Source of the DNA: Deltaproteobacteria bacterium
GTDB taxonomy: Bacteria > Myxococcota_A > UBA796 > UBA9615
NCBI GenBank assembly: GCA_002724675.1
Contig: PBPL01000101.1
Span: forward strand, 8-64,007
Length of the DNA: 64,000 bases
Reading direction: 5' to 3'
How positions within the stretch are numbered: the first letter of the stretch is position 1; each line of letters opens with the position of its first letter. Under the pieces are notes generated by a model. It was not told where the DNA came from, ran no database searches, and was given only the letters and a program-made list of their open reading frames with translations. Made by a program: the position numbers and the translations under genes. Below are positions 38,247 to 53,535 of this stretch, one piece after another.

Positions 38247-38732
38247 TTATTGAGGCTGTAGCCTCGCCTCGGTGCCGGATCCGGTGGAACCGAACCCGCC
38301 TTCTCCGCGCTCGGTAGCGTCGAGGATCTCGACCTGTTCTACCGACACCTGAGCCACCCGGGCCACCACCAACTGAGCAATGCGCATGCCTCGCTCGATG
38401 ACAAAAGGCTCAGACCCCAGGTTGGCAAGAAGCACCTTCACCTCACCCCGATAGTCCGAGTCGATGGTTCCAGGTGCATTGATGATCGTCACGCCGTGTC
38501 GGAGCGCCAGACCGGACCGAGGGCGGACCTGAATCTCGGTGCCCGGAGGCACCGCCATGGACAGGCCCGTTGGCACCGCGAGGCGGTCTCCTGGGTGAAG
38601 CGTGATGGGTTCAGTGACCGCTGCGCGGACATCGAGTCCCGCCGCCTGAGCGCTCATGGCCTCAGGCAGCGGGACGTCGTTGTCAGCTTCCGGTCGGAGC
38701 CGGCAAACACGTAGGGGTATGACCGGCTCCAC
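38247..38732 (-). CDS. dut: dUTP diphosphatase
   Basis: It has the dUTPase motifs …AAGLDVRA…[27 protein letters not shown]…. Confidence 0.9.
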
Positions 38733-38739
38733 GCTCGCC

Positions 38740-40881
38740 TCAGTGCGCGGCGTGCGCGGCTTCTTCGCCGAGCGTCTCGCCGAGGGCAGCCTTGCGGGAC
38801 AGCCGGATCTTGCCCGACTTGTCGACGTCGATGCACTTCACGAGTACCTCGTCGCCCTCCTGCAGGATGTCAGTCACCTTGTTGACCCGTGCCTCAGCCA
38901 GCTCGCTGATGTGCACAAGGCCATCGGTGTTGGCGAAGATCTCCACAAAGGCGCCGAAGTCCACGACCTTCTTCACGATGCCCAGGTAGAGCTTGCCCAC
39001 CTCGGCTTCCTGCGTCAGCTCACGGATCATACGGATAGCCGCCTCACAGGCCGCCGAGTCCGGCGACGAGATCGTGACCACGCCGACCCCAGAGGAGTCG
39101 TCCACGTTTACCTGAGCGCCCGTGGCCTCCACGATGCCCTTGATCGTCTTGCCACCGGGGCCAATGACGTCCCGGACACGGCTCTGGGCAATCTCCAGCT
39201 GGTGAATGCGGGGCGCGAAGGGGCTCAGGTCATCCCGTGCCTCTCCCAGCACCGTATTCATGCAACCGAGGATGTGCTCTCGTCCCTCACGCGCCTGGCT
39301 GAGCGCCTTGCGCATGATCTCCGAGCTCACGCCCTTGATCTTGGTGTCCATCTGGAAGGCGGTGACACCCGCGCGGGTGCCCGTGACCTTAAAGTCCATG
39401 TCGCCCAAGTGGTCCTCATCGCCCGAGATGTCGGACAGGACGGCGTATCGCTCGCCTTCCTTGATGAGACCCATGGCGATACCGGCAACCGGTGCTTTCG
39501 TGGGGACACCAGCGTCCATCATGGCGAGGGACGCACCGCACACCGAGGCCATCGACGAACTGCCGTTGCTCTCGGTGATGTCGGAGACGACACGCACCAC
39601 GTAGGGGTAGTCCTTCTGAGGGACGACCGGGTGCACCGCGCGTCGCGCGAGAGCGCCATGGCCGATTTCCCGGCGACCGGGACCCATCATGCGACGAGTC
39701 TCTCCCACCGAATAGGCGGGGAAGTTGTAGTGCAGCATGAAGCGATTCCAGCCCTGCTCATCGAGTTCATCGATGCGCTGCTCGTCCATGCGTGTACCGA
39801 GCGTGCAGGTCACCAGCGCTTGCGTCTCACCCCGGGTGAACAGGGCCGAGCCGTGGGTTCGCGGCAGCACACCGACCTCCACGTTGATGTTTCGCACCTG
39901 GTCCGGGACACGACCATCCAATCGGACACCCTCGTCCAGGAGACGTCCACGCATCAGCTGCTTGACCAGCTTTCCGTGAATCTCACCCAGCTGCTTGCGG
40001 CGACCCGCCTTCTCGTCGTCACTGGCGTCATCGGCCGCAGCGAACTTCTCTCGAATCGCCTCCTTCACGGCCTTGAGCGCATCCTTGCGGTCGTGCTTGC
40101 CTTCCACCTGGAAGGCGTCGACGATCGCCGAGCTGAACTCCGCGCGGACTTCGTCGACGAGCGACGAGATGTCCTCCTCCTCCGTCACGGTCATCTTGGC
40201 CTTACCGACCGCTGCCACCAACTCCTTCTGGAGCTCAATGATGGGCTGCGCGGCCTGGAAGCCAAACTCGAGACCGGCGACGATGTCTTCTTCGCTGGCC
40301 TCTTCCATTCCGCCCTCGACCATCGTGATGGCCTCGCTGCTGGCGGCAATGATCATGTCGAAGTCACTGTCCTCGAGCTGCGTCAGCGTGGGGTTGGCTA
40401 CCCACTCGCCATTGATGCGACCAACTCGGATGCCCGCGATGGGACCGTCGAACGGAATGTCCGAAATGCAGGTCGCAGCCGAGGCGCCGGTCAGCGCCAG
40501 GACATCGGTGGGGTTCTCCTGGTCGTGCGACACGACATAGGCGAGAACCTGAATCTCAGCACGCCACGTCTTTGGAAACAGCGGCCGGATGGGACGGTCC
40601 ATCATGCGGGCAACGAGAATGCTCTTCGGCCCGGGACGACCCTCACGCTTGAAGTAACCACCTGGGATGCGACCAGCGGCAGCCGCCATGGGTCGGTAAT
40701 CACAGGTCAAGGGCAGGAAGTCAGTGCCAGGACGGCCCTCACTCGCACCCGTTGCCGCGACCAGCACGACGGAATCGCCATACCGGACCAGCACCGAACC
40801 GCCCGCCTGCTTGGCGACGCGTCCGGTCTCAATGGATAGTTGTTTTCCGTTGATCTCAACGGACTTAATTGTAGTTGCCAT
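38740..40881 (-). CDS. pnp: Polyribonucleotide nucleotidyltransferase (PNPase)
   Basis: It has two RNase PH domains plus KH and S1 domains. The start is chosen at M21 ([20 protein letters not shown]). Confidence 0.9.
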
Positions 40882-40941
40882 CTTGGCAGTCTCTTTCGTC
40901 GCGGTCAGCAGCCCCTGGGCGAAACCCCTTGGTTCCGCCAT

Positions 40942-45238: not shown

Positions 45239-46406
45239 AGCCCATCTGACGGCTCTGACTCAGCAATCGTCGAACGCTGATTCGGTCCACTACGAGGAAG
45301 AACCCGCCCAGAACACTCAGCAAGAGAAACTGGCTGCCGTGGACCAACACCGAAAAAGCAGCCGCCTGGTCATAGAACTCCGTGCCGACGACCAGCACCA
45401 CGCCGACAATCACCGCAGCCTCGAAGACCCCGGCAAAGAGCGGGGGTGCCGGCAGAATCAGGAAGATGCAGATCGACGAAAGAATCGCTCCTGCGTCCCA
45501 GAAGCCCACCTGGGCACCGAACTCAAGCCCACGAGCCATCACGAGGATCGAGAACACGTTGAGAACCCACGTGATCACCGTCCAAGCGAGGACTGGAACA
45601 GCGCTACGCAAAGAACCCAACGACAGCAGTGCATCCAGGAACGTGCGCAGCAACCCAGAAACCAGCGATCCCATCCTCTCGCCCGCCAGTCCAGCGAGAC
45701 GACCCGCGAGCGAGACACCCCGGTCCCCCATAGCCAGTAGCACGACGAGAAGACCCGATGCGGGCAGCAACACAGAGAGAATGGCGGTGCGGCCCGTACC
45801 CACCAAGTCCACAGGCTCTCCACCAATACTCACCGGACCATCGGGAAGATCTGCCAGAGCCAGCGCGCCAACAAAGATCGCCCCGAGGGCCAGCATGTCG
45901 AGAACCCGCTCGACAACCACCGTCGCTACACCAGACCCAAAGGGGATCTCTTCCCGCTCGAACAGAAGGTACGGACGCACCACCTCCCCGAGCCTAAACG
46001 GAAGCACGTTGATCAGAAAGAAACCAACAGAGCAGACCGAAAAATAGGTCCTAAAACCGACCCGCGGCTCCACGGCCTGAACCAGACGACCCCAGCGAAT
46101 CGACCGACACACATGAACGCTGAAGAAGAGCCCTAAGCCAGCGATGAAGGTCGGGACATGGACCCCTTGCAGGGCCTCCAGAAACGCCTGACCATCGACC
46201 CCTCGAAACGCGAGATACAAGGCGACGGCACCCACCGCCAACATCACGAAGATCTGAAGGATTCTGGGCAACGTGTTGAGCGCCAGCGAGACGCGCCTAG
46301 AGCTTGTGGATCCGACCGGCAGGAGAGTCAACTCCAGCCAGAGCATTACGACAGTCGACAATCGCCACTGATTTCCGCGCGACCAACTCCCAGTCGATGG
46401 CAGCAT
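45201..46406 (-). CDS. Membrane protein with a lysylphosphatidylglycerol-synthase-TM / flippase-like domain (UPF0104-like)
   Basis: It has ~8 TM helices and …FRLGEVVRPYLL… The start is uncertain, because the ORF overlaps the upstream dehydrogenase 3' end by ~110 nt. Its 3' end overlaps convergent trmB by 38 nt. Confidence 0.5.
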   Translation of the reverse strand: MLPSTGSWSRGNQWRLSTVVMLWLELTLLPVGSTSSRRVSLALNTLPRILQIFVMLAVGAVALYLAFRGVDGQAFLEALQGVHVPTFIAGLGLFFSVHVCRSIRWGRLVQAVEPRVGFRTYFSVCSVGFFLINVLPFRLGEVVRPYLLFEREEIPFGSGVATVVVERVLDMLALGAIFVGALALADLPDGPVSIGGEPVDLVGTGRTAILSVLLPASGLLVVLLAMGDRGVSLAGRLAGLAGERMGSLVSGLLRTFLDALLSLGSLRSAVPVLAWTVITWVLNVFSILVMARGLEFGAQVGFWDAGAILSSICIFLILPAPPLFAGVFEAAVIVGVVLVVGTEFYDQAAAFSVLVHGSQFLLLSVLGGFFLVVDRISVRRLLSQSRQMGSSSPADDGSPPA

Positions 46407-47649
46407 GATCCGCGGTCACCACGACACAATCAAAGGAGGAGAGCATCTCTTCGCCCAGCGACTCCGAAGCCAGCAACTCCCCCGAGACAAGCTCCAAGTG
46501 TGGCACATGTGGATCGTGGTACCGGATCTCAGCTCCCCGAGCGATCAGTAACTGAATGACATCGAGCGCCGGGCTCTCCCGAGTGTCGGACACGTTGGCC
46601 TTGTAGCTCACACCTAGGATGAGCACTCGACTGCCACGCACCGACTTGGAGTCCTCGTTCAGGCTCTCAGAGACCAACTCCACCACATGAGCCGGCATCG
46701 AGGTGTTGACCTCGGCGGCCAACTCGATGAACCGTGCGCGATAGTTGAGTGTCTTGAGGATCCAGGAAAGATAGTGCGGATCCACAGGGATGCAGTGCCC
46801 ACCCAGACCGGGGCCTGGATAAAACTTCATGAAGCCAAACGGCTTGGTGGCGGCGGCATCGATCACCTCCCAGGTGTCCAGGCCCAGCTTGCGACACATG
46901 AGCGCGACCTCGTTGACCAGCCCAATGTTCACCGCTCGAAAGGTGTTCTCCAGTAGCTTGGCCATCTCCGCTGCTCGGGTAGACGACATGGGGACAACCG
47001 TCGTCAAGAAGGTGTTGTACAGCGCGCAACCCACGGCAGTGCACGAATCGGTGATGCCGCCAACGAGACGCGGTGTGTTGCGGATATCGAACGAGAGGTT
47101 CCCCGGATCGACGCGCTCCGGGGAGAAGCAGAGGAAGAAGTCCTCACCGACCACCAAGCCCTTCTCTTCGAAGACGGGCAAGAGAAGCTCGTCGGTGCTC
47201 CCAGGGTAGGTGGTCGACTCCAGGACAATGAGTTGCCCAGGTCGAAGCCGCTCAGCCACTTCGCGGGCAGCCGTCAGAATGAACGAGATGTCCGGATCCC
47301 GCGTCTTGGATAGCGGAGTCGGCACGCAGATAGAGATCGCGTCCATCTCGGACAAATCATCGAAGCTCGCCCGGGGATGGAATCGACCCGACTGAAGGCA
47401 CTCCTGCAGGACCTTGTCGCTTACGTCGTCAATGTAGGACTTTCCCGCTAATAGACTGTCAATCTTTCGCTGATCAATGTCGTAGCCGGTCACATCGAGA
47501 CCAGCAGAGACCATGGTCATCGCCAGAGGAAGACCCACATAGCCCTGCCCGATGACACCCACTCGAGCCCCACCAGACTGAATGAGCCCAATCAACGCTG
47601 CGCTGGCATCCGTAGCTTGGTCGAGCGGCGTTGATTGATCAGTTCTCAT
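46297..47649 (-). CDS. Nucleotide-sugar (UDP-GlcNAc/ManNAc or UDP-glucose family) dehydrogenase
   Basis: It has VGVIGQGYVGLPLAM…ISICVPTPL…GVSYKANVSDTRESPAL. There is an ATGA overlap with the upstream gene. Confidence 0.8.
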   Translation of the reverse strand: MRTDQSTPLDQATDASAALIGLIQSGGARVGVIGQGYVGLPLAMTMVSAGLDVTGYDIDQRKIDSLLAGKSYIDDVSDKVLQECLQSGRFHPRASFDDLSEMDAISICVPTPLSKTRDPDISFILTAAREVAERLRPGQLIVLESTTYPGSTDELLLPVFEEKGLVVGEDFFLCFSPERVDPGNLSFDIRNTPRLVGGITDSCTAVGCALYNTFLTTVVPMSSTRAAEMAKLLENTFRAVNIGLVNEVALMCRKLGLDTWEVIDAAATKPFGFMKFYPGPGLGGHCIPVDPHYLSWILKTLNYRARFIELAAEVNTSMPAHVVELVSESLNEDSKSVRGSRVLILGVSYKANVSDTRESPALDVIQLLIARGAEIRYHDPHVPHLELVSGELLASESLGEEMLSSFDCVVVTADHAAIDWELVARKSVAIVDCRNALAGVDSPAGRIHKL

Positions 47650-49397
47650 CGGTGCTTGGCGGGTCCCACACAGGAGCGACGCATCCTACCCGGATTCCGT
47701 CCGCGCGACACCAGCCCGAGCAGTGCCCACGCCATCAGCAGAGCCACCGGCCCGTGTCCGCGAGCAGAACCACCCAACGACAGGAGCGAGGCCCCACAGT
47801 CCAAGCTGGGAGTCTCGTCCAGACGAAGAGGGTCGGAATAGCCCAGGTATTCCTCTAGGTTCGAGACGCCATCTCCATCGGCATCGAGCGCCCCATCGGC
47901 TCTCTGCGGATTCAATCCCCAGGCAAGCTCCCACACGTCATCCATGCCGTCCGCGTCCCCATCCGGAGGCAGATAGATCAGGCCCAACTCCACCCGTTCT
48001 TCAGTTCCCACCGAGACGACATCAGCGCTCCGCAGCGACCGTGCCTCTGGCCAGTAGGTTGTGACGCGGCTGGGATCGCCGGTGCAAAATGGTAGCCACT
48101 CAACCTGGACCAGGTAGGCGCCAGTATCGAGGCCCTGGACCACAAAAGCGCCATCCCCATCCGTTCGACCACCAGCGACCTCCATCTCGTCAGAGGCGTC
48201 GAATACTGTAATTGCGGCTCCACGAACCGCGGTGCCTGTTCGAGTCCGCACCGACCCCACCAACTGGCCTCCTTCCAGCATGGAGATGTCCAGCTGGCGT
48301 GTCTCACCAGCAACCAATCGGATGGGTTCGGCTGTGCGAAATGGAAGCAGTGGCGACGTACCGGCCAACTGGACCTCCACAGACACCGCACCCGCGGGCA
48401 AGTGCTCCAGACGAGCGGGTGTACTGGAGGTCTCCGGTCCCACCGACCGCGCCAGTAGGCGCTCCCCTCCCCCTCCATCGCTCGCCTGCCGCACAACCAA
48501 TTGCGCCCCGTAGCCCGCCTGCTCCTCCAGCCCACTGACACGAACCTCCAAGACCGCGGCCTCGGCGAGGACGAGGTCAGGAACCGTTGTCACCTCGCCC
48601 GCTTCGAGAAGCAGCCAATCAGCTTCGGCTTGAGTGTCCACTCCAGGAGACCACGTCCTTGAAAACCCCTCCGCTTCCACTCGCAACTGAAACTCAGAGC
48701 CGGGAACGGCGTCGAAGTAAAACCGACCGGTCGAATCGGTTGTAGAGGGCGGAACTGACGCGTTCCGCATCGACAAGAAAACCTCAGCCCCCGGGACAGG
48801 TCTATCTTCCTCGAGGACCCGACCCGCCACCGTGGCTCCTGCAGGCACCACGAGGTCAGCGCGTCGGTCCTCTCCACGCACAGCGTGAATGAACTCCGCC
48901 CCCTCAGGATTCCAGGTCCCCGGGAACCAGACCGACCCCGCCATGGGCACCTCGCCCAGCGGCGCCAGGGAGACTCTCAGCTCGTAGAGCCCCGGGAGGA
49001 TCTCCTCGTCCTCCACGAACGAATCCAGACCCGTGATGCGGTACTGACCTTCATCATCGGTCCAGGATTCTCGAATCAGCCCCTGGTGGAAATAGCCCAC
49101 CCCAGTGGCCGTGACCCTCTGGCCAGCGAGAGGGGCTCCATTGGAGTCCACAACCGTGCCCCACAACGACCCCCCTACAGGCAACAGGAAGTCGATGCCA
49201 GACAAGGTCTGATCGCTCTCTAAGCGCAAGATCTCTGCATTGCAGAAGAGATAGCGATCATCGTAGTAGGCACCCAGCCGATTGAGGGCATCCGGCGGCA
49301 AGGCCCAGGCCCGGTGCAGGCCTGGGTCGACTCCTTCGATGCGGTAGAACCCGCGCTCGTCCGTCGTGGACAGGGCCGCTTGGCCCTTGAGGTCCAT
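47646..49397 (-). CDS. Large secreted protein with repeated carboxypeptidase-regulatory-like (CarbopepD_reg_2-type) beta-sandwich domains, TSP3-type Ca-binding repeats and a C-terminal sorting-signal-like tail
   Basis: It contains multiple instances of …GTVVDSNGAPLAGQRVTA…DDEGQYRI… The C-terminus has …DGDADGMDD…DADGDGVSN… followed by a Cys/Gly segment, a hydrophobic helix and RGRNPGRMRR. The span given starts at the first ATG. A signal-peptide-like segment lies upstream in frame without a canonical start (see findings). Confidence 0.6.
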   Translation of the reverse strand: MDLKGQAALSTTDERGFYRIEGVDPGLHRAWALPPDALNRLGAYYDDRYLFCNAEILRLESDQTLSGIDFLLPVGGSLWGTVVDSNGAPLAGQRVTATGVGYFHQGLIRESWTDDEGQYRITGLDSFVEDEEILPGLYELRVSLAPLGEVPMAGSVWFPGTWNPEGAEFIHAVRGEDRRADLVVPAGATVAGRVLEEDRPVPGAEVFLSMRNASVPPSTTDSTGRFYFDAVPGSEFQLRVEAEGFSRTWSPGVDTQAEADWLLLEAGEVTTVPDLVLAEAAVLEVRVSGLEEQAGYGAQLVVRQASDGGGGERLLARSVGPETSSTPARLEHLPAGAVSVEVQLAGTSPLLPFRTAEPIRLVAGETRQLDISMLEGGQLVGSVRTRTGTAVRGAAITVFDASDEMEVAGGRTDGDGAFVVQGLDTGAYLVQVEWLPFCTGDPSRVTTYWPEARSLRSADVVSVGTEERVELGLIYLPPDGDADGMDDVWELAWGLNPQRADGALDADGDGVSNLEEYLGYSDPLRLDETPSLDCGASLLSLGGSARGHGPVALLMAWALLGLVSRGRNPGRMRRSCVGPAKHR

Positions 49398-49529
49398 GGC
49401 ATAGACCTGGACGCCCTCCAGCGGCTCCCCACCAGGGTATCCGGCGACCTCCCCCTCCAGAACGGCAGCGGCCGCGGCCCCCCCGTAGAGGAGGACCGCG
49501 GCCGCGAGAATGCCTATTGGGCGAATGGC

Positions 49530-50462
49530 TTACTCGAAGCCAATCAGCCAGATCGCCTGTCCACCGTACTGCCCAGACAGGTCCGTGCCCACGTAGGGGT
49601 TGGTCTCGGTGTTCTTGAAGAACTCCCAGTATCCGTACCACGAAGAGCCGGGGCCCGCCGCAGCCGAGACCTGGTTGATACCAATCTCGTTGGACAGCGT
49701 TCCAGGGGTGTTGTTCACGAAACCAGCGTGGGTGAACTCAAGCCCGTACTCAGACAGGGTCTGCTCGATCTCGGCAGCGCTGTAGCCACCGTCCACCGTC
49801 AGCTCCATGCCCTGATCGCTCATCGTGGTGACATCCACCAAGCCGAGGCTGAGGAAGTCGCCCATGCCACCATCGGTGATGGGAGTCAGCAGCGAGGGGC
49901 CGAAGTTGGCGCCGGCGAGGTCCAGCTCGGCGACATCGCAGTCGTCCGGGTTGGTCGCAGGATCGGAGATGTCGGTGGCCGACGTGTGATCGAACTCAAT
50001 GGAGCCCGTGCAGTTGTTGCAGCCTTCACCAGCCAGGATGCCGGGGCCGAAGGTGGCAGAGCCAGCGATCTGAATCCACTGCGTGCAGTTCAGGATCTGG
50101 GTTGCCTCGTTGTACTCAGCCCAGTAGTTGACACCGAACACGGCAGAGATGTCGGTAGAGGAGTCGTCCACGGGGACCGCTTCCATCTCGATGGAGAAGC
50201 TGATGGCAGCCAGCGCGAACTCAGCCGCGGTGTCGTCATCATCATCGTCGTCATCATCATCGTCGTCGCCGAGGTTGTTACCACCGTCGTCGTCGTCGTC
50301 ACCAGGAATGTTGTTGCCGTCGTTGTCAGTGTCACCGTCGATGGACGAGTCGCCACCATTGGCACCATCTGTGCGGGCATCACAGCCCATTCCAACCAAC
50401 GCAACACCCACAACCAGCGCCAACATATAGCTACTGAACATCTTCACGATAACCTTGAACAT
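49530..50462 (-). CDS. Acidic lipoprotein with a poly-Asp tract
   Basis: The start is at M48 (MFKVIVKMFSSYMLALVVGVALVGMGC), with GGAGGGA upstream. It has a lipobox. It contains DDDDDGGNNLGDDDDDDDDDDDD. The C-terminal domain is of unknown function. Confidence 0.6.
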   Translation of the reverse strand: MFKVIVKMFSSYMLALVVGVALVGMGCDARTDGANGGDSSIDGDTDNDGNNIPGDDDDDGGNNLGDDDDDDDDDDDDTAAEFALAAISFSIEMEAVPVDDSSTDISAVFGVNYWAEYNEATQILNCTQWIQIAGSATFGPGILAGEGCNNCTGSIEFDHTSATDISDPATNPDDCDVAELDLAGANFGPSLLTPITDGGMGDFLSLGLVDVTTMSDQGMELTVDGGYSAAEIEQTLSEYGLEFTHAGFVNNTPGTLSNEIGINQVSAAAGPGSSWYGYWEFFKNTETNPYVGTDLSGQYGGQAIWLIGFE

Positions 50463-50704
50463 TCGGGTCTCCCTCCACCTCGCATATACCGACCAGACCG
50501 GTTGCAGACACCCTGCAACACGAACCATCCAGCCCAGCTGAGTGCGAGCGGCGAGCGGTATGTACCCGAGAGCCGCGCGAAAGAAAAGTCCTTTTTCGAA
50601 CAAGCCCTACGCGAAACGGCAACAGGCATCGAAATCGGAAAAAACAAGAAGAGACGCAACTTCAAGACAAGGTCGACGCTGTAACCGATAGCGGCAACCG
50701 CAGC

Positions 50705-51991
50705 TCAGTCAACGCGAACCTGCCTGGGAGGCTCCTTCGACGCCGAGACCGCTCTGACCCGAGCCGTATCCAGCTGACCTCGACCAAACTCCGAGTCGAT
50801 CTCGCGTGCCAGCGAGAGCACGAAGCGAAGAGTTTGCTCGAGAGCGCGGGGCTCTACCGAGTCCAATCGGTCCTGGTGCGTGTGTAAGACCTCCGCAGCC
50901 CTGCCACGAACCAACGTAGTGAGCGTCACCGCCCGGTAGCCGGCCTCCGTCACCGGACCCGCATCGGTTCGCCCCACAAGGGCGACCTCGCCGACCCCAT
51001 CGAACTCATCGGACTGAGCGAGACGCTCCGCCAGAGCAGGCAGGCTTGGTCTATATGGCAAGCGGTCCCAACGCCCTTCTGAGCTGACGAAGTGCAGCTC
51101 CCCACGGCCGACGTCGTCTAGGTTGACGAAGAAGGTCGCGCGCCGGTCCAGAAGATGAGCGAACTGGCGCACGAACGCCTTCATGCCGCCCGAGTCCGCT
51201 TCACGCGCGCCGGTCGCGAGGACCCACAGCTCGCAGTGCTCCAGTGGTTCATTCACCAGATGCTCCGCGGCCACTAGAGCCACCGCGAGGCCAGAGCCGT
51301 TGTCGATGGCCCCAGCGGTGGGGACAGAGCGCCACCAATCGATGGCAATGAGAAGCGTGGCGACGTGGATCCAGGCCGCCATCAGCAGCGCCGCAAGCGC
51401 GACGGGAGAGGGTTCAGGAAGCGCCAACGCCAAGATGGAGGCGACAAGTTGAGTAGCACCACCGACGAGTACAATGGTGCCAGGGTGCAGGGGCACACCA
51501 CCGATTAATTCATAGTGAGCCAGTCGCTTGACCCAGGGACTGAAGAGCGTGGACGCACCGGCCACGTCCGCATGCGCCACGAGCACCACCCGACCCCGAC
51601 TGCCCGGCTGCCGAAGGCGCGCGACCATATTGCCCGTCAGCTGCTTCATGAGAAGCCAGCGCACCAGACGCGGGCGGCCGCGAAGCTCACCCCAAAAGGA
51701 CAGCAAGACCAACGAAGTCAGCAACACAGGCCCCAACCCGTTGCTCAGAAGGGACCAGAGCAGGGCCACGAGCAGAAGGGCCGAGTGTGTCCCCAGCAGG
51801 ACAGAGGTCTGAGGAGCGCACACCGCCCCCTCAACGACCGTGTCCATGCCCAGCCGGTCTAGACGCCCGGCAAGCGCAGCCTGGGCCATGCGCTCACCTT
51901 GAGAACCCGCCAGTCGACCAGGCAACTCGGTGACAACCCCGATGAATTCCTTCATGCGTTGGACCGTCGATGTTTGATGCGAGTGTGACAT
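50705..51991 (-). CDS. M28-family metallopeptidase, membrane-anchored
   Basis: It has N-terminal TM helices, the …AIDNGSG… motif and other M28-like metal-ligand regions. Confidence 0.65.
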   Translation of the reverse strand: MSHSHQTSTVQRMKEFIGVVTELPGRLAGSQGERMAQAALAGRLDRLGMDTVVEGAVCAPQTSVLLGTHSALLLVALLWSLLSNGLGPVLLTSLVLLSFWGELRGRPRLVRWLLMKQLTGNMVARLRQPGSRGRVVLVAHADVAGASTLFSPWVKRLAHYELIGGVPLHPGTIVLVGGATQLVASILALALPEPSPVALAALLMAAWIHVATLLIAIDWWRSVPTAGAIDNGSGLAVALVAAEHLVNEPLEHCELWVLATGAREADSGGMKAFVRQFAHLLDRRATFFVNLDDVGRGELHFVSSEGRWDRLPYRPSLPALAERLAQSDEFDGVGEVALVGRTDAGPVTEAGYRAVTLTTLVRGRAAEVLHTHQDRLDSVEPRALEQTLRFVLSLAREIDSEFGRGQLDTARVRAVSASKEPPRQVRVD

Positions 51992-52073
51992 TGTCGAGAA
52001 GAGTCTAAACCGTTCGCTATACTCTCAAACCCCAGGGGTCGGTCTTCGGCCCATTACCTCGGTTAGGACCTCG

Positions 52074-53498
52074 ATGAACCTCGTTGTCGACGAGGTTGTT
52101 TCGCTGCACAGCGACAACCTCTCTCATGTATTCCATGTACCCACATCATCGCTGTATGCGATGGACTCCGAAACCATGTCTATCCTCGAGGGTGCTCGTG
52201 ATGGACTGCATACCGATCAGAGCCTGCAGAAACTGACGGCGGACTCAGGTCTCGACCCGGCCGAGGTCGAGGACATCATCGACAATTTGGTGAAGTTGCG
52301 TCTCCTGGTCCCACCAGGCGAGACCGGCAACCGAGGCCCACTTGCTGACCGGCCGCAGAGTGGCCGGAGCATGGGCAATCTCGTCCTCCACGTGGCACAC
52401 ACCTGCAATCTGGGTTGCGGCTACTGCTATGCGGAGCAAGGCCTGTACAAGGGCAAAGCCACCCTCATGAACGAAGAGCGAGCCCATGAATATGTGGACT
52501 GGCTATTCGACCAGTGTGATCCGGAGACCAAGTCTCTCGGCATCACTTTCTTCGGGGGCGAGCCACTGCTGAATCTGAAAGTCATGAAGTCCGCCGCAGC
52601 CCATGCTCGAGAACGAGCGGACACGGACAACAAGTCTGTGCGGTTCTCCGTGACGACCAACGGCACCCTAGTCACCCCCGAGATCGTCGACTTTCTAGCC
52701 GCCATCGACTGTGTCGTCACAGTGAGTCTGGACGGCATCGGCAAGACCAACGATCGCCTGCGCCCGTTCCACTCGGGCCGCGGGTCCTACGACCTCGTCC
52801 TGGACCGCATCCAACCGCTCCTCGAACGGGGCAAGGTGGCTGCCCGTGTCACCGTCACCCGGCAGAACCTCGATGTCGTAGACACCGTCACGACGCTCCT
52901 CGAACGAGGCTTCGCTGAGGTGGGGTGCTCGCCAGTCGATGCGAAGAATCCTGCCTACGACCTGCGAGGGGAAGACTACGAAGTGCTGCTCGATGGCTTC
53001 GGCACACTCTCCCGACGCTACATCGACGAGGCCGTGCAGGGTCGTAAGTACGGCTTCTCTAACATCGCCAACATCATCAAGGCGGTGCACCAAGGGCACA
53101 ACAAGGACTACCCGTGCGGCGCGGGGCTCCAGATGGTTGCGGGTGCCCCCAACGGTGAGATGAGCCTATGCCACCGATTCGTTGGTGAGCCGGACTACGT
53201 CCTTGGCAACGTCAAAGAGGGTGGAATCGATAGCCATCGTCGGCTTCAGATCCTCGAGGACATCCAGCTGTCCGAGCGATCCGACTGCTCCAGTTGCTGG
53301 GCCCGTTACATCTGCTCCGGCGGATGCCACCACGTCAACTTCCTGTTCGAGGGAGACCCCAGCCGCACTTACCTGACCCACTGTGACTACCTCCGAGCTT
53401 GGTATCGCATGGGCCTCGAAGCCTACGCTGAGATCATGTCACGCAACCCCGAGTTCGTCGGGGAGTTCATCGACCCCGGTTTTCTGTGCAATCAGTAA
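52074..53498 (+). CDS. Radical SAM / SPASM-domain peptide-modifying enzyme with an N-terminal RRE-like extension (QhpD-like thioether-forming maturase)
   Basis: It has the CNLGCGYC radical-SAM motif and a C-terminal SPASM region (CGAG…C…CSSCWARYICSGGCHH). The first ~90 aa read LYAMDSETMSILEG…DPAEVEDIIDNLVKLRLL, which resembles a PqqD-type RiPP recognition element (RRE). Confidence 0.85.
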   Translation: MNLVVDEVVSLHSDNLSHVFHVPTSSLYAMDSETMSILEGARDGLHTDQSLQKLTADSGLDPAEVEDIIDNLVKLRLLVPPGETGNRGPLADRPQSGRSMGNLVLHVAHTCNLGCGYCYAEQGLYKGKATLMNEERAHEYVDWLFDQCDPETKSLGITFFGGEPLLNLKVMKSAAAHARERADTDNKSVRFSVTTNGTLVTPEIVDFLAAIDCVVTVSLDGIGKTNDRLRPFHSGRGSYDLVLDRIQPLLERGKVAARVTVTRQNLDVVDTVTTLLERGFAEVGCSPVDAKNPAYDLRGEDYEVLLDGFGTLSRRYIDEAVQGRKYGFSNIANIIKAVHQGHNKDYPCGAGLQMVAGAPNGEMSLCHRFVGEPDYVLGNVKEGGIDSHRRLQILEDIQLSERSDCSSCWARYICSGGCHHVNFLFEGDPSRTYLTHCDYLRAWYRMGLEAYAEIMSRNPEFVGEFIDPGFLCNQ

Positions 53499-53535
53499 CG
53501 AGAGCCTAAGATTGGCGCGAAAAGGAACCCAGCCC

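What the first reader, a model, noticed from the sequence alone, without database searches (positions are those of the whole stretch)
49398..49532. Signal-peptide-coding segment with no canonical start, in frame with and abutting the stop of the upstream lipoprotein gene
Upstream of the first ATG (49397) of the CarbopepD/TSP3 protein, the same frame encodes …(I)RPIGILAAAVLLYGGAAAAAVLEGEVAGYPGGEPLEGVQVYA-MDLKG…. This is a textbook signal peptide.

Between the TAA stop of the upstream lipoprotein gene (49530-49532, same frame) and the ATG there is no ATG, GTG or TTG. Only ATT/ATA codons sit right after the TAA. There are three possibilities:
- rare ATT/ATA initiation;
- stop-codon readthrough, giving a lipoprotein-CarbopepD fusion;
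- a sequencing error that created the TAA or removed a start.
Basis: seen in the sequence. Interest (0 to 1): 0.55.

Follow-up and report, generated by a model that had tools for sequence, protein, structure and literature searches.

The report
Secreted-protein gene starting at rare ATT
A secreted-protein gene in a marine bacterium has no normal start codon and most likely starts at a rare ATT three bases after the previous gene's stop, just ahead of a very strong RNA hairpin; gene-callers miss this start and cut off the export signal.

Summary
On the minus strand the lipoprotein gene (49530-50462) ends at TAA 49532-49530. The same frame then encodes a signal peptide and the start of the first CarboxypepD_reg domain. 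No in-frame ATG, GTG or TTG occurs before ATG 49397.

- **Not a sequencing error.** Seven independent assemblies of two species (66% protein identity) share GAG-TAA-GCC-ATT and the G7 run.
- **ATG 49397 is an internal Met.** Starting there removes about 26 Pfam profile positions of the first domain.
- **ATT 49526-49524 aligns with the start codon of ten orthologous loci.** Those starts are GTG x6, TTG x3 and ATG x1. All ten precede a signal peptide and none is fused to the lipoprotein gene.
- **The 43 codons before the ATG are under purifying selection** (dN/dS 0.25).

Best reading: initiation at AUU, probably coupled to termination of the upstream gene.

New here: a 17-bp hairpin (49505-49468, -39.5 kcal/mol) begins 22 nt after the AUU. 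It is the most stable local fold in the 64-kb window, is conserved in the sister species, and coincides with a peak of synonymous-site conservation. Its role is unknown.

Readthrough fusion, bypassing and start loss are less likely but not excluded. This is a new member of a known kind, of moderate interest.

The parts
49530..50462 (-). Upstream gene: Asp-rich probable lipoprotein, 310 aa (MFKVIVKMFSSYMLALVVGVALVGMGC...WLIGFE*), with no Pfam or NCBIfam family
   Evidence: Translation. No family hits. Homologues sit at the same position in all orthologous loci. It was called as 310 aa in other assemblies.
49530..49532 (-). TAA stop of the upstream gene, in frame with the downstream gene
   Evidence: It is identical in 7 assemblies. 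The upstream protein's C-terminus aligns with the ends of its orthologues.
49526..49542 (-). Small predicted stem-loop U-GGCUU/CGAGU/AAGCC-A that encloses the stop codon and the A of the AUU
   Evidence: It appears in the minimum-energy fold of both species. This is a prediction only.
49524..49526 (-). [quoted passage not shown]
   Evidence: It is conserved in the sister species. It aligns with the Met/start codon of 10 orthologues. The next residues, R-P, match MRP in L001 and MRS in L138, L142 and L143.
49464..49526 (-). Signal-peptide coding segment ((M/I)RPIGILAAAVLLYGGAAAAA); cleavage is expected near AAA|VLEGEV
   Evidence: Alignment with orthologue signal peptides. Hydrophobicity and charge table. 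The cleavage position is inferred from the alignment and is not predicted by a tool.
49468..49505 (-). 17-bp hairpin GCGGCCGCGGUCCUCCU-CUAC-GGGGGGGCCGCGGCCGC (-39.5 kcal/mol), starting at +22 from the A of the AUU and 24 nt after the stop
   Evidence: Fold z-score -5.3. It is the most stable 45-nt fold in the 64-kb window on either strand. Synonymous resampling gives p=0.003. It is conserved in L050, where one C>U change keeps a G.U pair. The sense strand is more stable than the antisense (-39.5 against -30.4).
49509..49517 (-). Alternative near-cognate codons: ATA 49517-49515 (not conserved) and ATT 49511-49509 (conserved, abuts the hairpin)
49395..49397 (-). ATG chosen by gene callers; it is an internal Met of the first CarboxypepD_reg domain
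   Evidence: with the extension, residues 23-71 match profile positions 2-50; from the ATG, only profile positions 28-50 are matched. Orthologues carry M, R or L at this position, well inside the protein.
47646..49526 (-). Full downstream gene (626 aa from ATT): signal peptide, four CarboxypepD_reg-like domains, TSP3-like Asp repeats, and a C-terminal Cys + hydrophobic helix + Arg-rich tail
   Evidence: Pfam 134 bits, alignment A2, dN/dS 0.15 against the sister species.

Best explanation
The CarboxypepD_reg/TSP3 protein gene does not start at ATG 49397. It most likely starts at ATT 49526-49524, a near-cognate AUU read by initiator tRNA, which lies 3 nt after the UAA stop of the upstream lipoprotein gene.

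The product would be a 626-aa precursor with an ordinary Sec signal peptide, M-RPIGILAAAVLLYGGAAAAA|VLEGEV. No Shine-Dalgarno-like motif precedes the AUU, and the stop is only 3 nt away. Initiation is therefore most plausibly carried out by ribosomes that have just terminated on the lipoprotein gene (termination-reinitiation coupling).

A weak start of this kind would keep the downstream protein at a low level relative to the lipoprotein.

A 17-bp G+C-rich hairpin begins 22 nt after the AUU, inside the signal-peptide codons, and is an added RNA-level element specific to this clade. Its role is inferred only. It may be a 3' stabiliser or partial terminator of the lipoprotein message. Alternatively it may be a barrier that keeps post-termination ribosomes near the AUU.

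Shown: the sequence facts, their conservation, coding selection on the segment, the homology of the start position, and the exceptional stability of the hairpin. Inferred: that AUU is the codon used, that initiation is coupled, and what the hairpin does.
For: (a) There is no in-frame ATG, GTG or TTG between the TAA and ATG 49397.

(b) Starting at ATG 49397 truncates the first CarboxypepD_reg domain: profile positions 2-50 are matched with the extension, only 28-50 without it.

(c) The 43 codons from ATT up to the ATG differ from the sister species at 21 sites, 2/6/13 by codon position, with dN/dS 0.25. The 20 codons after the hairpin show 8 synonymous and 6 conservative changes. Translation must therefore begin upstream of them.

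(d) ATT#1 is conserved in both species. The ATA is not (ACA in the sister species).

(e) In 10 other orthologous loci with the same gene order, the protein starts with a canonical codon (GTG x6, TTG x3, ATG x1) followed by Arg and a hydrophobic core. These starts align with ATT#1: MRP.., MRS.. and MDR.. against (I)RP...

(f) Three consecutive codons of the n-region changed between the two species (IRPIG to ISRTG), yet one Arg is retained. This is expected for a working signal peptide.

(g) The spacing of +3 nt lies within the range where termination-reinitiation coupling works. Distances of about 20 nt abolish it (PMC10666635; review PMC12548453).

(h) AUU is a documented, if rare, bacterial start, for example infC (PMC5499595).

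(i) Hairpin evidence.
Against: There is no experimental evidence here, such as N-terminal proteomics, ribosome profiling or reporters.

AUU is a poor initiator and is discriminated against by IF3. No SD-like motif precedes it, although none precedes the canonical starts of the orthologues either.

Only two species carry the arrangement, so conservation of ATT rests on one comparison. The junction is also constrained by the upstream gene's C-terminus and possibly by RNA structure. Conservation of the triplet therefore cannot be attributed to start function alone.

Nearly all of the hydrophobic-core codons lie inside the hairpin. Their conservation is equally explained by structure.

The in-frame arrangement also permits readthrough.
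Confidence: 0.6

Rival explanations
1. Translation starts at another near-cognate codon in the segment. Candidates are ATT 49511-49509 (giving M-LAAAVLLYGG...), ATA 49517-49515, or CTG 49460-49458 (giving a protein without a signal peptide).
For: ATT#2 and the CTG are conserved in both species. For ATA, the hairpin would sit at +13, near the mRNA entry channel.
Against: ATA is ACA in the sister species. ATT#2 lies 3 nt from the hairpin base, so the hairpin would have to melt for it to reach the P site, and the resulting signal peptide would have no charged n-region. A CTG start would remove the signal peptide from a protein that carries extracellular-type TSP3 repeats and a C-terminal sorting-type tail. 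None of these codons aligns with the orthologous start.
Confidence: 0.12
2. The start codon has been lost and the signal peptide is no longer made. Either a truncated cytoplasmic protein is made from ATG 49397 or very little protein is made. The gene would then be decaying or silenced, and conservation of the segment would reflect the RNA hairpin and the upstream gene's end.
For: There is no canonical start. The hairpin and a weak start would both lower expression. Synonymous conservation of the core codons can be explained by structure.
Against: The 1.9-kb ORF is intact in both species, with dN/dS 0.15 across a saturated dS of about 1.75. The 20 codons between the hairpin and the ATG show coding-type selection. 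The ATG cuts a domain. The C-terminal sorting-type tail and the Asp repeats are retained.
Confidence: 0.12
3. Stop-codon readthrough of UAA makes a lipoprotein-CarboxypepD fusion.
For: The two ORFs are in frame in both species, and a very stable hairpin lies downstream.
Against: There are no fusions in 10 orthologous loci, where the genes lie in different frames, overlap by 19-22 nt, or are spaced by 8-71 nt. UAA is used as a normal stop elsewhere in the window (3 of 35 rough gene calls). The hairpin starts 24 nt after the stop; known readthrough stimulators, such as the MuLV pseudoknot, sit about 8 nt away (own knowledge). A fusion would put a hydrophobic helix in the middle of an exported lipoprotein. 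The conserved n-region Arg would have no explanation.
Confidence: 0.06
4. Translational bypassing of the T4 gene 60 type. Peptidyl-tRNA-Glu takes off at GAG 49535-49533 next to the UAA, skips 75 nt containing the hairpin, and lands on GAG 49457-49455. This would fuse the lipoprotein directly to the mature CarboxypepD domain.
For: A matching GAG lies before the stop and just after the hairpin. The stop follows the take-off codon directly. There is a small stem-loop at the take-off site, a compact hairpin in the gap, and GGAGG-like motifs at the landing site. The landing point coincides with the signal-peptide/mature boundary.
Against: The prior is very low, and GAG is a common codon. The gap is homologous to a functional signal peptide in all relatives and keeps its n-region charge. 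No fusion exists in any orthologue. The stem-loop geometry differs from gene 60.
Confidence: 0.02
5. A sequencing or assembly error created the TAA, removed a start codon, or changed the G7 run.
For: A G7 homopolymer lies in the segment.
Against: The window, three other assemblies of this species and three assemblies of a 66%-identical sister species, from different samples and projects, all share TAA-GCC-ATT and G7. No other frame supplies a start plus a hydrophobic core: the frame with TTG 49543 stops at TAG 49516 and the TTG is absent from L050 (reading).
Confidence: 0.01

Closest known systems
AUU-initiated bacterial genes (E. coli infC; own knowledge also pcnB)
   Same: There is a near-cognate AUU where homologues have a canonical start, and it is conserved between related species. 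A role in setting or regulating expression level is plausible (PMC5499595).
   Different: This is a secreted multi-domain envelope protein, not a translation factor. No IF3 autoregulatory logic is evident. The AUU sits 3 nt after an in-frame stop with no SD-like motif. Use of the AUU is inferred, not demonstrated.
Translational coupling by termination-reinitiation in closely spaced same-strand gene pairs
   Same: The pair is on the same strand with +3 nt spacing, inside the range where coupling is efficient (PMC10666635; PMC12548453). The next junction downstream, at 47646-47649, is a classical 4-nt overlap.
   Different: Typical coupled pairs restart at AUG or GUG, often in an ATGA or TAATG overlap. 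Here the restart codon would be AUU and a very strong hairpin follows. Coupling was not tested.
Intercistronic or post-stop G+C-rich hairpins that stabilise upstream mRNA segments or act as U-tract-less terminators (own knowledge: REP elements, puf operon hairpins, 'I-shaped' terminators of high-GC bacteria)
   Same: A strong G+C hairpin lies shortly (24 nt) after a stop codon and has no U tract. The second-strongest hairpin of the window (38633-38677) is a comparable U-tract-less hairpin 63 nt after another gene's stop.
   Different: This hairpin lies inside the coding sequence of the next gene, in its signal-peptide codons, and is not in an intergenic spacer. It fails the classic terminator pattern.
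Downstream hairpins that enhance recognition of weak or near-cognate start codons in eukaryotic scanning (Kozak 1990, own knowledge; PMC10499604, title and abstract listed)
   Same: A stable hairpin lies a short distance 3' of a near-cognate start.
   Different: That mechanism depends on 40S scanning. No bacterial counterpart is established. The spacing here (+22) is longer than the eukaryotic optimum of about 14 nt.

Membership tests
Near-cognate (AUU) bacterial start codon | No canonical in-frame start can give the full-length homologous protein | tested here: met
   no ATG, GTG or TTG between the TAA and ATG 49397. ATG 49397 truncates the first domain.
Near-cognate (AUU) bacterial start codon | The AUU aligns with the start of orthologues and is conserved in relatives that share the arrangement | tested here: met
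   (10 orthologous starts align). (ATT conserved in the sister species, but only two species are available).
Near-cognate (AUU) bacterial start codon | Direct evidence of initiation at the AUU (fMet N-terminus, initiation-site profiling, mutagenesis) | not testable with these tools
   No expression or proteomic data were available.
Termination-reinitiation coupled gene pair | Same strand, with overlap or a very short stop-to-start distance | tested here: met
   There are 3 nt between the TAA and the ATT. For distance dependence see PMC10666635.
Termination-reinitiation coupled gene pair | Downstream translation depends on translation of the upstream gene | not testable with these tools
   This needs a two-reporter assay with premature stops in the upstream gene.
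Sec (SPase I) signal peptide | Positively charged n-region, hydrophobic h-region of about 7-15 residues, and small residues at -3/-1 before the mature domain | tested here: met
   By inspection and a simple script: one Arg, core GILAAAVLLY with KD10 of 2.96, then AAAAA before VLEGEV. It aligns with orthologue signal peptides. No SignalP-type predictor was run.
Programmed stop-codon readthrough | In-frame downstream ORF | tested here: met
Programmed stop-codon readthrough | Fused (stop-less) versions among homologues, a leaky stop context, or a stimulatory structure immediately 3' of the stop | tested here: not met
   0 of 10 orthologous loci are fused or in frame by design. The stop is UAA-G. 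The hairpin begins 24 nt after the stop.
Translational bypassing (T4 gene 60 type) | Matched take-off and landing codons, with a stop directly after the take-off codon | tested here: inconclusive
   GAG 49535-49533 plus UAA, and GAG 49457-49455, are present. However, GAG is a common codon and the gap is a homologue of a functional signal peptide.
Translational bypassing (T4 gene 60 type) | Nascent-peptide signal and a demonstrated junction peptide | not testable with these tools
   This requires mass spectrometry or reporters.
Intrinsic (Rho-independent) terminator | G+C-rich hairpin followed by a U tract | tested here: not met
   The hairpin is present but is followed by UGCCGUUCUGG. The scan found 0 terminator-like sites in 47000-52500.
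Known structured RNA family (Rfam) | Match to a curated covariance model | tested here: not met
   the only hit is a chance-level mir-598 match elsewhere (E=0.76).

The most novel reading that the evidence does not exclude
The conserved module of UAA stop, 3 nt, AUU, 18 nt, then a 17-bp hairpin may be a dedicated bacterial device for restarting translation at a near-cognate codon. The hairpin would block forward sliding of the post-termination ribosome and hold it over the AUU. The secreted protein would then be made only by ribosomes that have just finished the lipoprotein, fixing a low ratio between the two. This would be a bacterial analogue of hairpin-assisted near-cognate initiation. A more exotic variant is hairpin-assisted bypassing from GAG to GAG. 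The module arose only in this clade, together with loss of the canonical start and collapse of the intergenic spacer.
Probability: 0.1. Interest if true: 0.7.

Novelty: new member of a known kind. Interest (0 to 1): 0.38.

Why it matters
In practice, every gene caller and database entry for this protein (MBN94191.1, P0001, P0002) starts at the internal Met. They therefore lose the signal peptide and part of the first domain, so the protein would be mis-scored as cytoplasmic. Several orthologues with GTG or TTG starts are truncated in the same way.

Biologically, this is a clean, conserved natural case of a probable AUU start placed 3 nt after a stop and followed by an exceptional hairpin. It could be used to test two things: whether termination-reinitiation tolerates near-cognate codons, and whether downstream structure helps. 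If the hairpin proves to be only an mRNA stabiliser or terminator, the case remains a small annotation lesson.

Tried and rejected
- **Frameshift at the G7 run.** Rejected. The hydrophobic core is encoded upstream of the run in the same frame as the rest of the gene. The other two frames give either a TAG (49516-49514) or a non-signal-like Arg/Gly-rich peptide. G7 is identical in 7 assemblies.
- **TTG 49543 in another frame plus a shift.** Rejected. The TTG is absent from the sister species (GTC GGC) and that frame stops after 9 codons.
- **TAA reassigned as a sense codon.** Rejected. TAA ends other good ORFs in the window.
- **Metagenome scan for intermediate relatives.** Wasted.
- **Third protein search, with the N-terminal 299 aa.** It returned only two distant hits, because low-complexity words saturated the candidate list.
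- **The repeat finder.** It did not report the hairpin. Seven of its pairs are not complementary at the DNA level: three are G.U in the RNA and four fall out of register.
- **Rfam and the terminator scan.** Both negative.
- **Look-up of P0001's contig.** Not on record.
- **Shine-Dalgarno use.** Examined only by eye on rough ORF calls and on the 12 junctions. No SD-like motif precedes any orthologous start. No formal genome-wide test was made.

Full report
**1. What is in the sequence**

The genes lie on the minus strand. The upstream ORF is an Asp-rich probable lipoprotein with no Pfam or NCBIfam family. It runs from ATG 50462 to TAA 49532-49530 (it is called as 310 aa in other assemblies).

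The same frame continues GCC ATT CGC CCA ATA GGC ATT CTC ... and reaches ATG 49397 after 44 codons. None of those codons is ATG, GTG or TTG. The peptide is AIRPIGILAAAVLLYGGAAAAAVLEGEVAGYPGGEPLEGVQVYA-MDLKG.

**2. The ATG is not the start**

The downstream protein has four CarboxypepD_reg stretches (134 bits), TSP3-like Asp repeats, and a C-terminal Cys, hydrophobic helix and Arg-rich tail.

I scanned the N-terminus alone. With the extension, residues 23-71 match CarboxypepD_reg profile positions 2-50. From the ATG, only positions 28-50 are matched. The ATG therefore sits inside the first domain, and the domain begins right after the hydrophobic segment.

**3. It is not an error**

An exact-protein look-up found three more assemblies of this species (L144-L146, from different ENA/Tara samples). 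A 66%-identical sister species is present in three further assemblies (L050-L052). All seven carry GAG TAA GCC ATT, the same 132-nt distance to the ATG, and the same G7 run.

The window appears to be a Tara Oceans MAG annotated 'Deltaproteobacteria bacterium' (MBN94191.1). Both species' proteins are deposited starting at MDLKG.

**4. The segment is translated**

Between the two species the 43 codons before the ATG differ at 21 positions, 2/6/13 by codon position, with dN/dS 0.25. The 20 codons between the hairpin and the ATG carry 8 synonymous and 6 conservative replacements, which is the signature of a translated sequence.

The rest of the gene has dN/dS 0.15 at a saturated dS of about 1.75, so the gene has been functional throughout the divergence of the two lineages.

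**5. Where translation starts**

The gene order is conserved in every orthologous locus recovered: radical-SAM, M28 peptidase, Asp-rich lipoprotein, this protein, UDP-glucose dehydrogenase, then an LPG_synthase_TM protein.

In ten such loci the protein has a canonical start in front of a signal peptide:

| Locus | Start codon | Position relative to the upstream stop |
|---|---|---|
| L001 | TTG | +8 |
| L002 | TTG | -19 |
| L053 | GTG | -22 |
| L055 | ATG | -22 |
| L137 | TTG | +25 |
| L140 | GTG | +22 |
| L141 | GTG | +47 |
| L143 | GTG | +40 |
| L138 | GTG | +71 |
| L142 | GTG | +71 |

None of these loci is fused to the lipoprotein gene. None has an SD-like motif. Several were truncated by gene callers.

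In the protein alignment these starts line up with the first ATT of the window: MRPLLPALL, MRSSALL and MDRLPAL against (I)RPIGILAA.

- ATT#1 and ATT#2 are conserved in the sister species. The ATA is not.
- ATT#2 abuts the hairpin and would give a signal peptide without a charged n-region.
- The three n-region codons after ATT#1 all changed between the species (RPI to SRT), yet one Arg is kept.

I therefore place the start at ATT 49526-49524.

AUU is a known but rare bacterial start codon (PMC5499595). With 3 nt between stop and start and no SD-like motif, termination-reinitiation coupling is the most plausible route. Such coupling works only at very short distances (PMC10666635; PMC12548453). 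This step is inference.

**6.

Codons 8-20 of the signal peptide form a perfect 17-bp hairpin with a 4-nt loop (49505-49489, loop 49488-49485, 49484-49468).

- **Stability.** The energy is -39.5 kcal/mol, with z = -5.3 against dinucleotide shuffles.
- **Rank.** It is the most stable 45-nt fold anywhere in the 64-kb window on either strand. The window mean is -11.5 with sd 3.95, and the next-best fold is -35.5.
- **Strand.** It is 9 kcal/mol stronger on the sense strand than on the antisense strand, because three pairs are G.U.
- **Codon choice.** I resampled synonymous codons with the window's codon usage. The peptide alone predisposes to structure (mean -26.7), but only 0.3% of samples reach -39.5.
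- **Conservation.** The sister species keeps it (-36.7), with one C>U change in the stem that preserves pairing as G.U and one change in the loop.
- **Synonymous sites.** Synonymous-codon identity between the species is highest across both genes exactly at the junction and hairpin. It is 0.93, 0.88 and 0.84 there, against about 0.68 upstream and about 0.4 downstream.
- **Relatives.** The canonical-start relatives L137 and L138 have no comparable structure (z about 0).

Loss of the canonical start, collapse of the spacer to 3 nt, and gain of the hairpin therefore go together in this clade.

The hairpin has no U tract and no Rfam match. The window's second-strongest hairpin (38633-38677) is likewise U-tract-less and lies 63 nt after another gene's stop. 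This makes an mRNA-end or stabiliser role reasonable. A role in holding ribosomes near the AUU is the more novel alternative. Neither can be tested here.

**7. Rivals**

- **Readthrough.** It is allowed by the frame but has no support from orthologues, stop context or hairpin spacing. It would also embed a hydrophobic helix in a lipoprotein.
- **Bypassing.** A gene-60-like hop from GAG to GAG is formally possible (matched codons, adjacent stop, structured gap). It carries a very low prior, and the 'gap' is a homologue of a working signal peptide.
- **Start loss.** Loss of the start with decay or silencing is contradicted by strong purifying selection on the whole ORF and on the codons upstream of the ATG.
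- **Sequencing error.** Excluded.

**8. Verdict**

The finding is a new member of a known kind: a near-cognate AUU start in a tightly spaced gene pair that automatic annotation misses. The added, unexplained hairpin gives it moderate interest.

Confidence that translation starts at ATT 49526 is about 0.6. The balance is spread over other near-cognate codons, start loss, readthrough and bypassing.

Noticed in passing
window 47646-47800 (- strand), C-terminus of the downstream protein: An invariant Cys is followed by a short spacer, a hydrophobic helix and an Arg-rich tail (..LDCGASLL..LLMAWALLGLVSRGRNPGRMRR..). All orthologues share this (alignment A2). It looks like a C-terminal sorting signal of the MYXO-CTERM or PEP-CTERM kind, but no NCBIfam model matched at E<0.01.
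   Followed up: partly
window 38633-38677 (both strands): This is the second most stable local hairpin of the window (-35.5 and -32.4 kcal/mol). It lies 63 nt after the TGA of the gene at 38740-40941 (- strand) and has no U tract. It may be a U-tract-less terminator or an mRNA 3' stabiliser in this organism.
   Followed up: partly
window 47646-47649 (- strand): The next gene (UDP-glucose dehydrogenase family, 46297-47649) starts with an ATG that overlaps the stop of the CarboxypepD gene by 4 nt, a classical coupled junction. Synonymous conservation against the sister species also rises at this end of the gene (0.73).
   Followed up: no
L137 4747/4792; L138 2817/2847; L142 1368/1386; L053 637/724: Gene callers also truncated orthologues that do have canonical GTG or TTG starts, choosing a later TTG or GTG inside or after the signal peptide. 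Weak, SD-less starts seem to be the rule for this gene: GTG x6, TTG x3 and ATG x1 among 10 loci.
   Followed up: yes
L144 position ~1403 (equivalent to window 49495): One assembly of the same species has GTC>GGC (Val>Gly in the signal-peptide core). This also turns a G.U pair of the hairpin into a G-G mismatch. It may be a polymorphism or an assembly error.
   Followed up: no
window 49530-53500 and loci L050, L001, L055, L137: There is a conserved gene cluster across distant 'Deltaproteobacteria'/Myxococcota MAGs: radical-SAM (Fer4_12) on the opposite strand, an M28 peptidase, an Asp-rich lipoprotein without a family, the CarboxypepD_reg/TSP3 protein, UDP-glucose dehydrogenase and an LPG_synthase_TM protein. 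In L137 a QH-AmDH gamma-like gene sits beside the radical-SAM gene. The cluster's function is unknown.
   Followed up: no
window 50150-50400 (- strand): The upstream lipoprotein has a long Asp/Gly/Asn low-complexity linker (..DDDDDGGNNLGDDDDDDDDDDDD..) after the lipobox-like LVGMGC. The linker varies in length among orthologues (280-406 aa proteins).
   Followed up: no
L001 6022-6065: The distant orthologue L001, which has a TTG start, also has a strong predicted hairpin about 48 nt downstream of its start, in the region encoding the signal-peptide/mature boundary. The 121-nt fold has z = -2.95. It was not determined whether this is related to the window's hairpin or simply reflects high G+C.
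   Followed up: no
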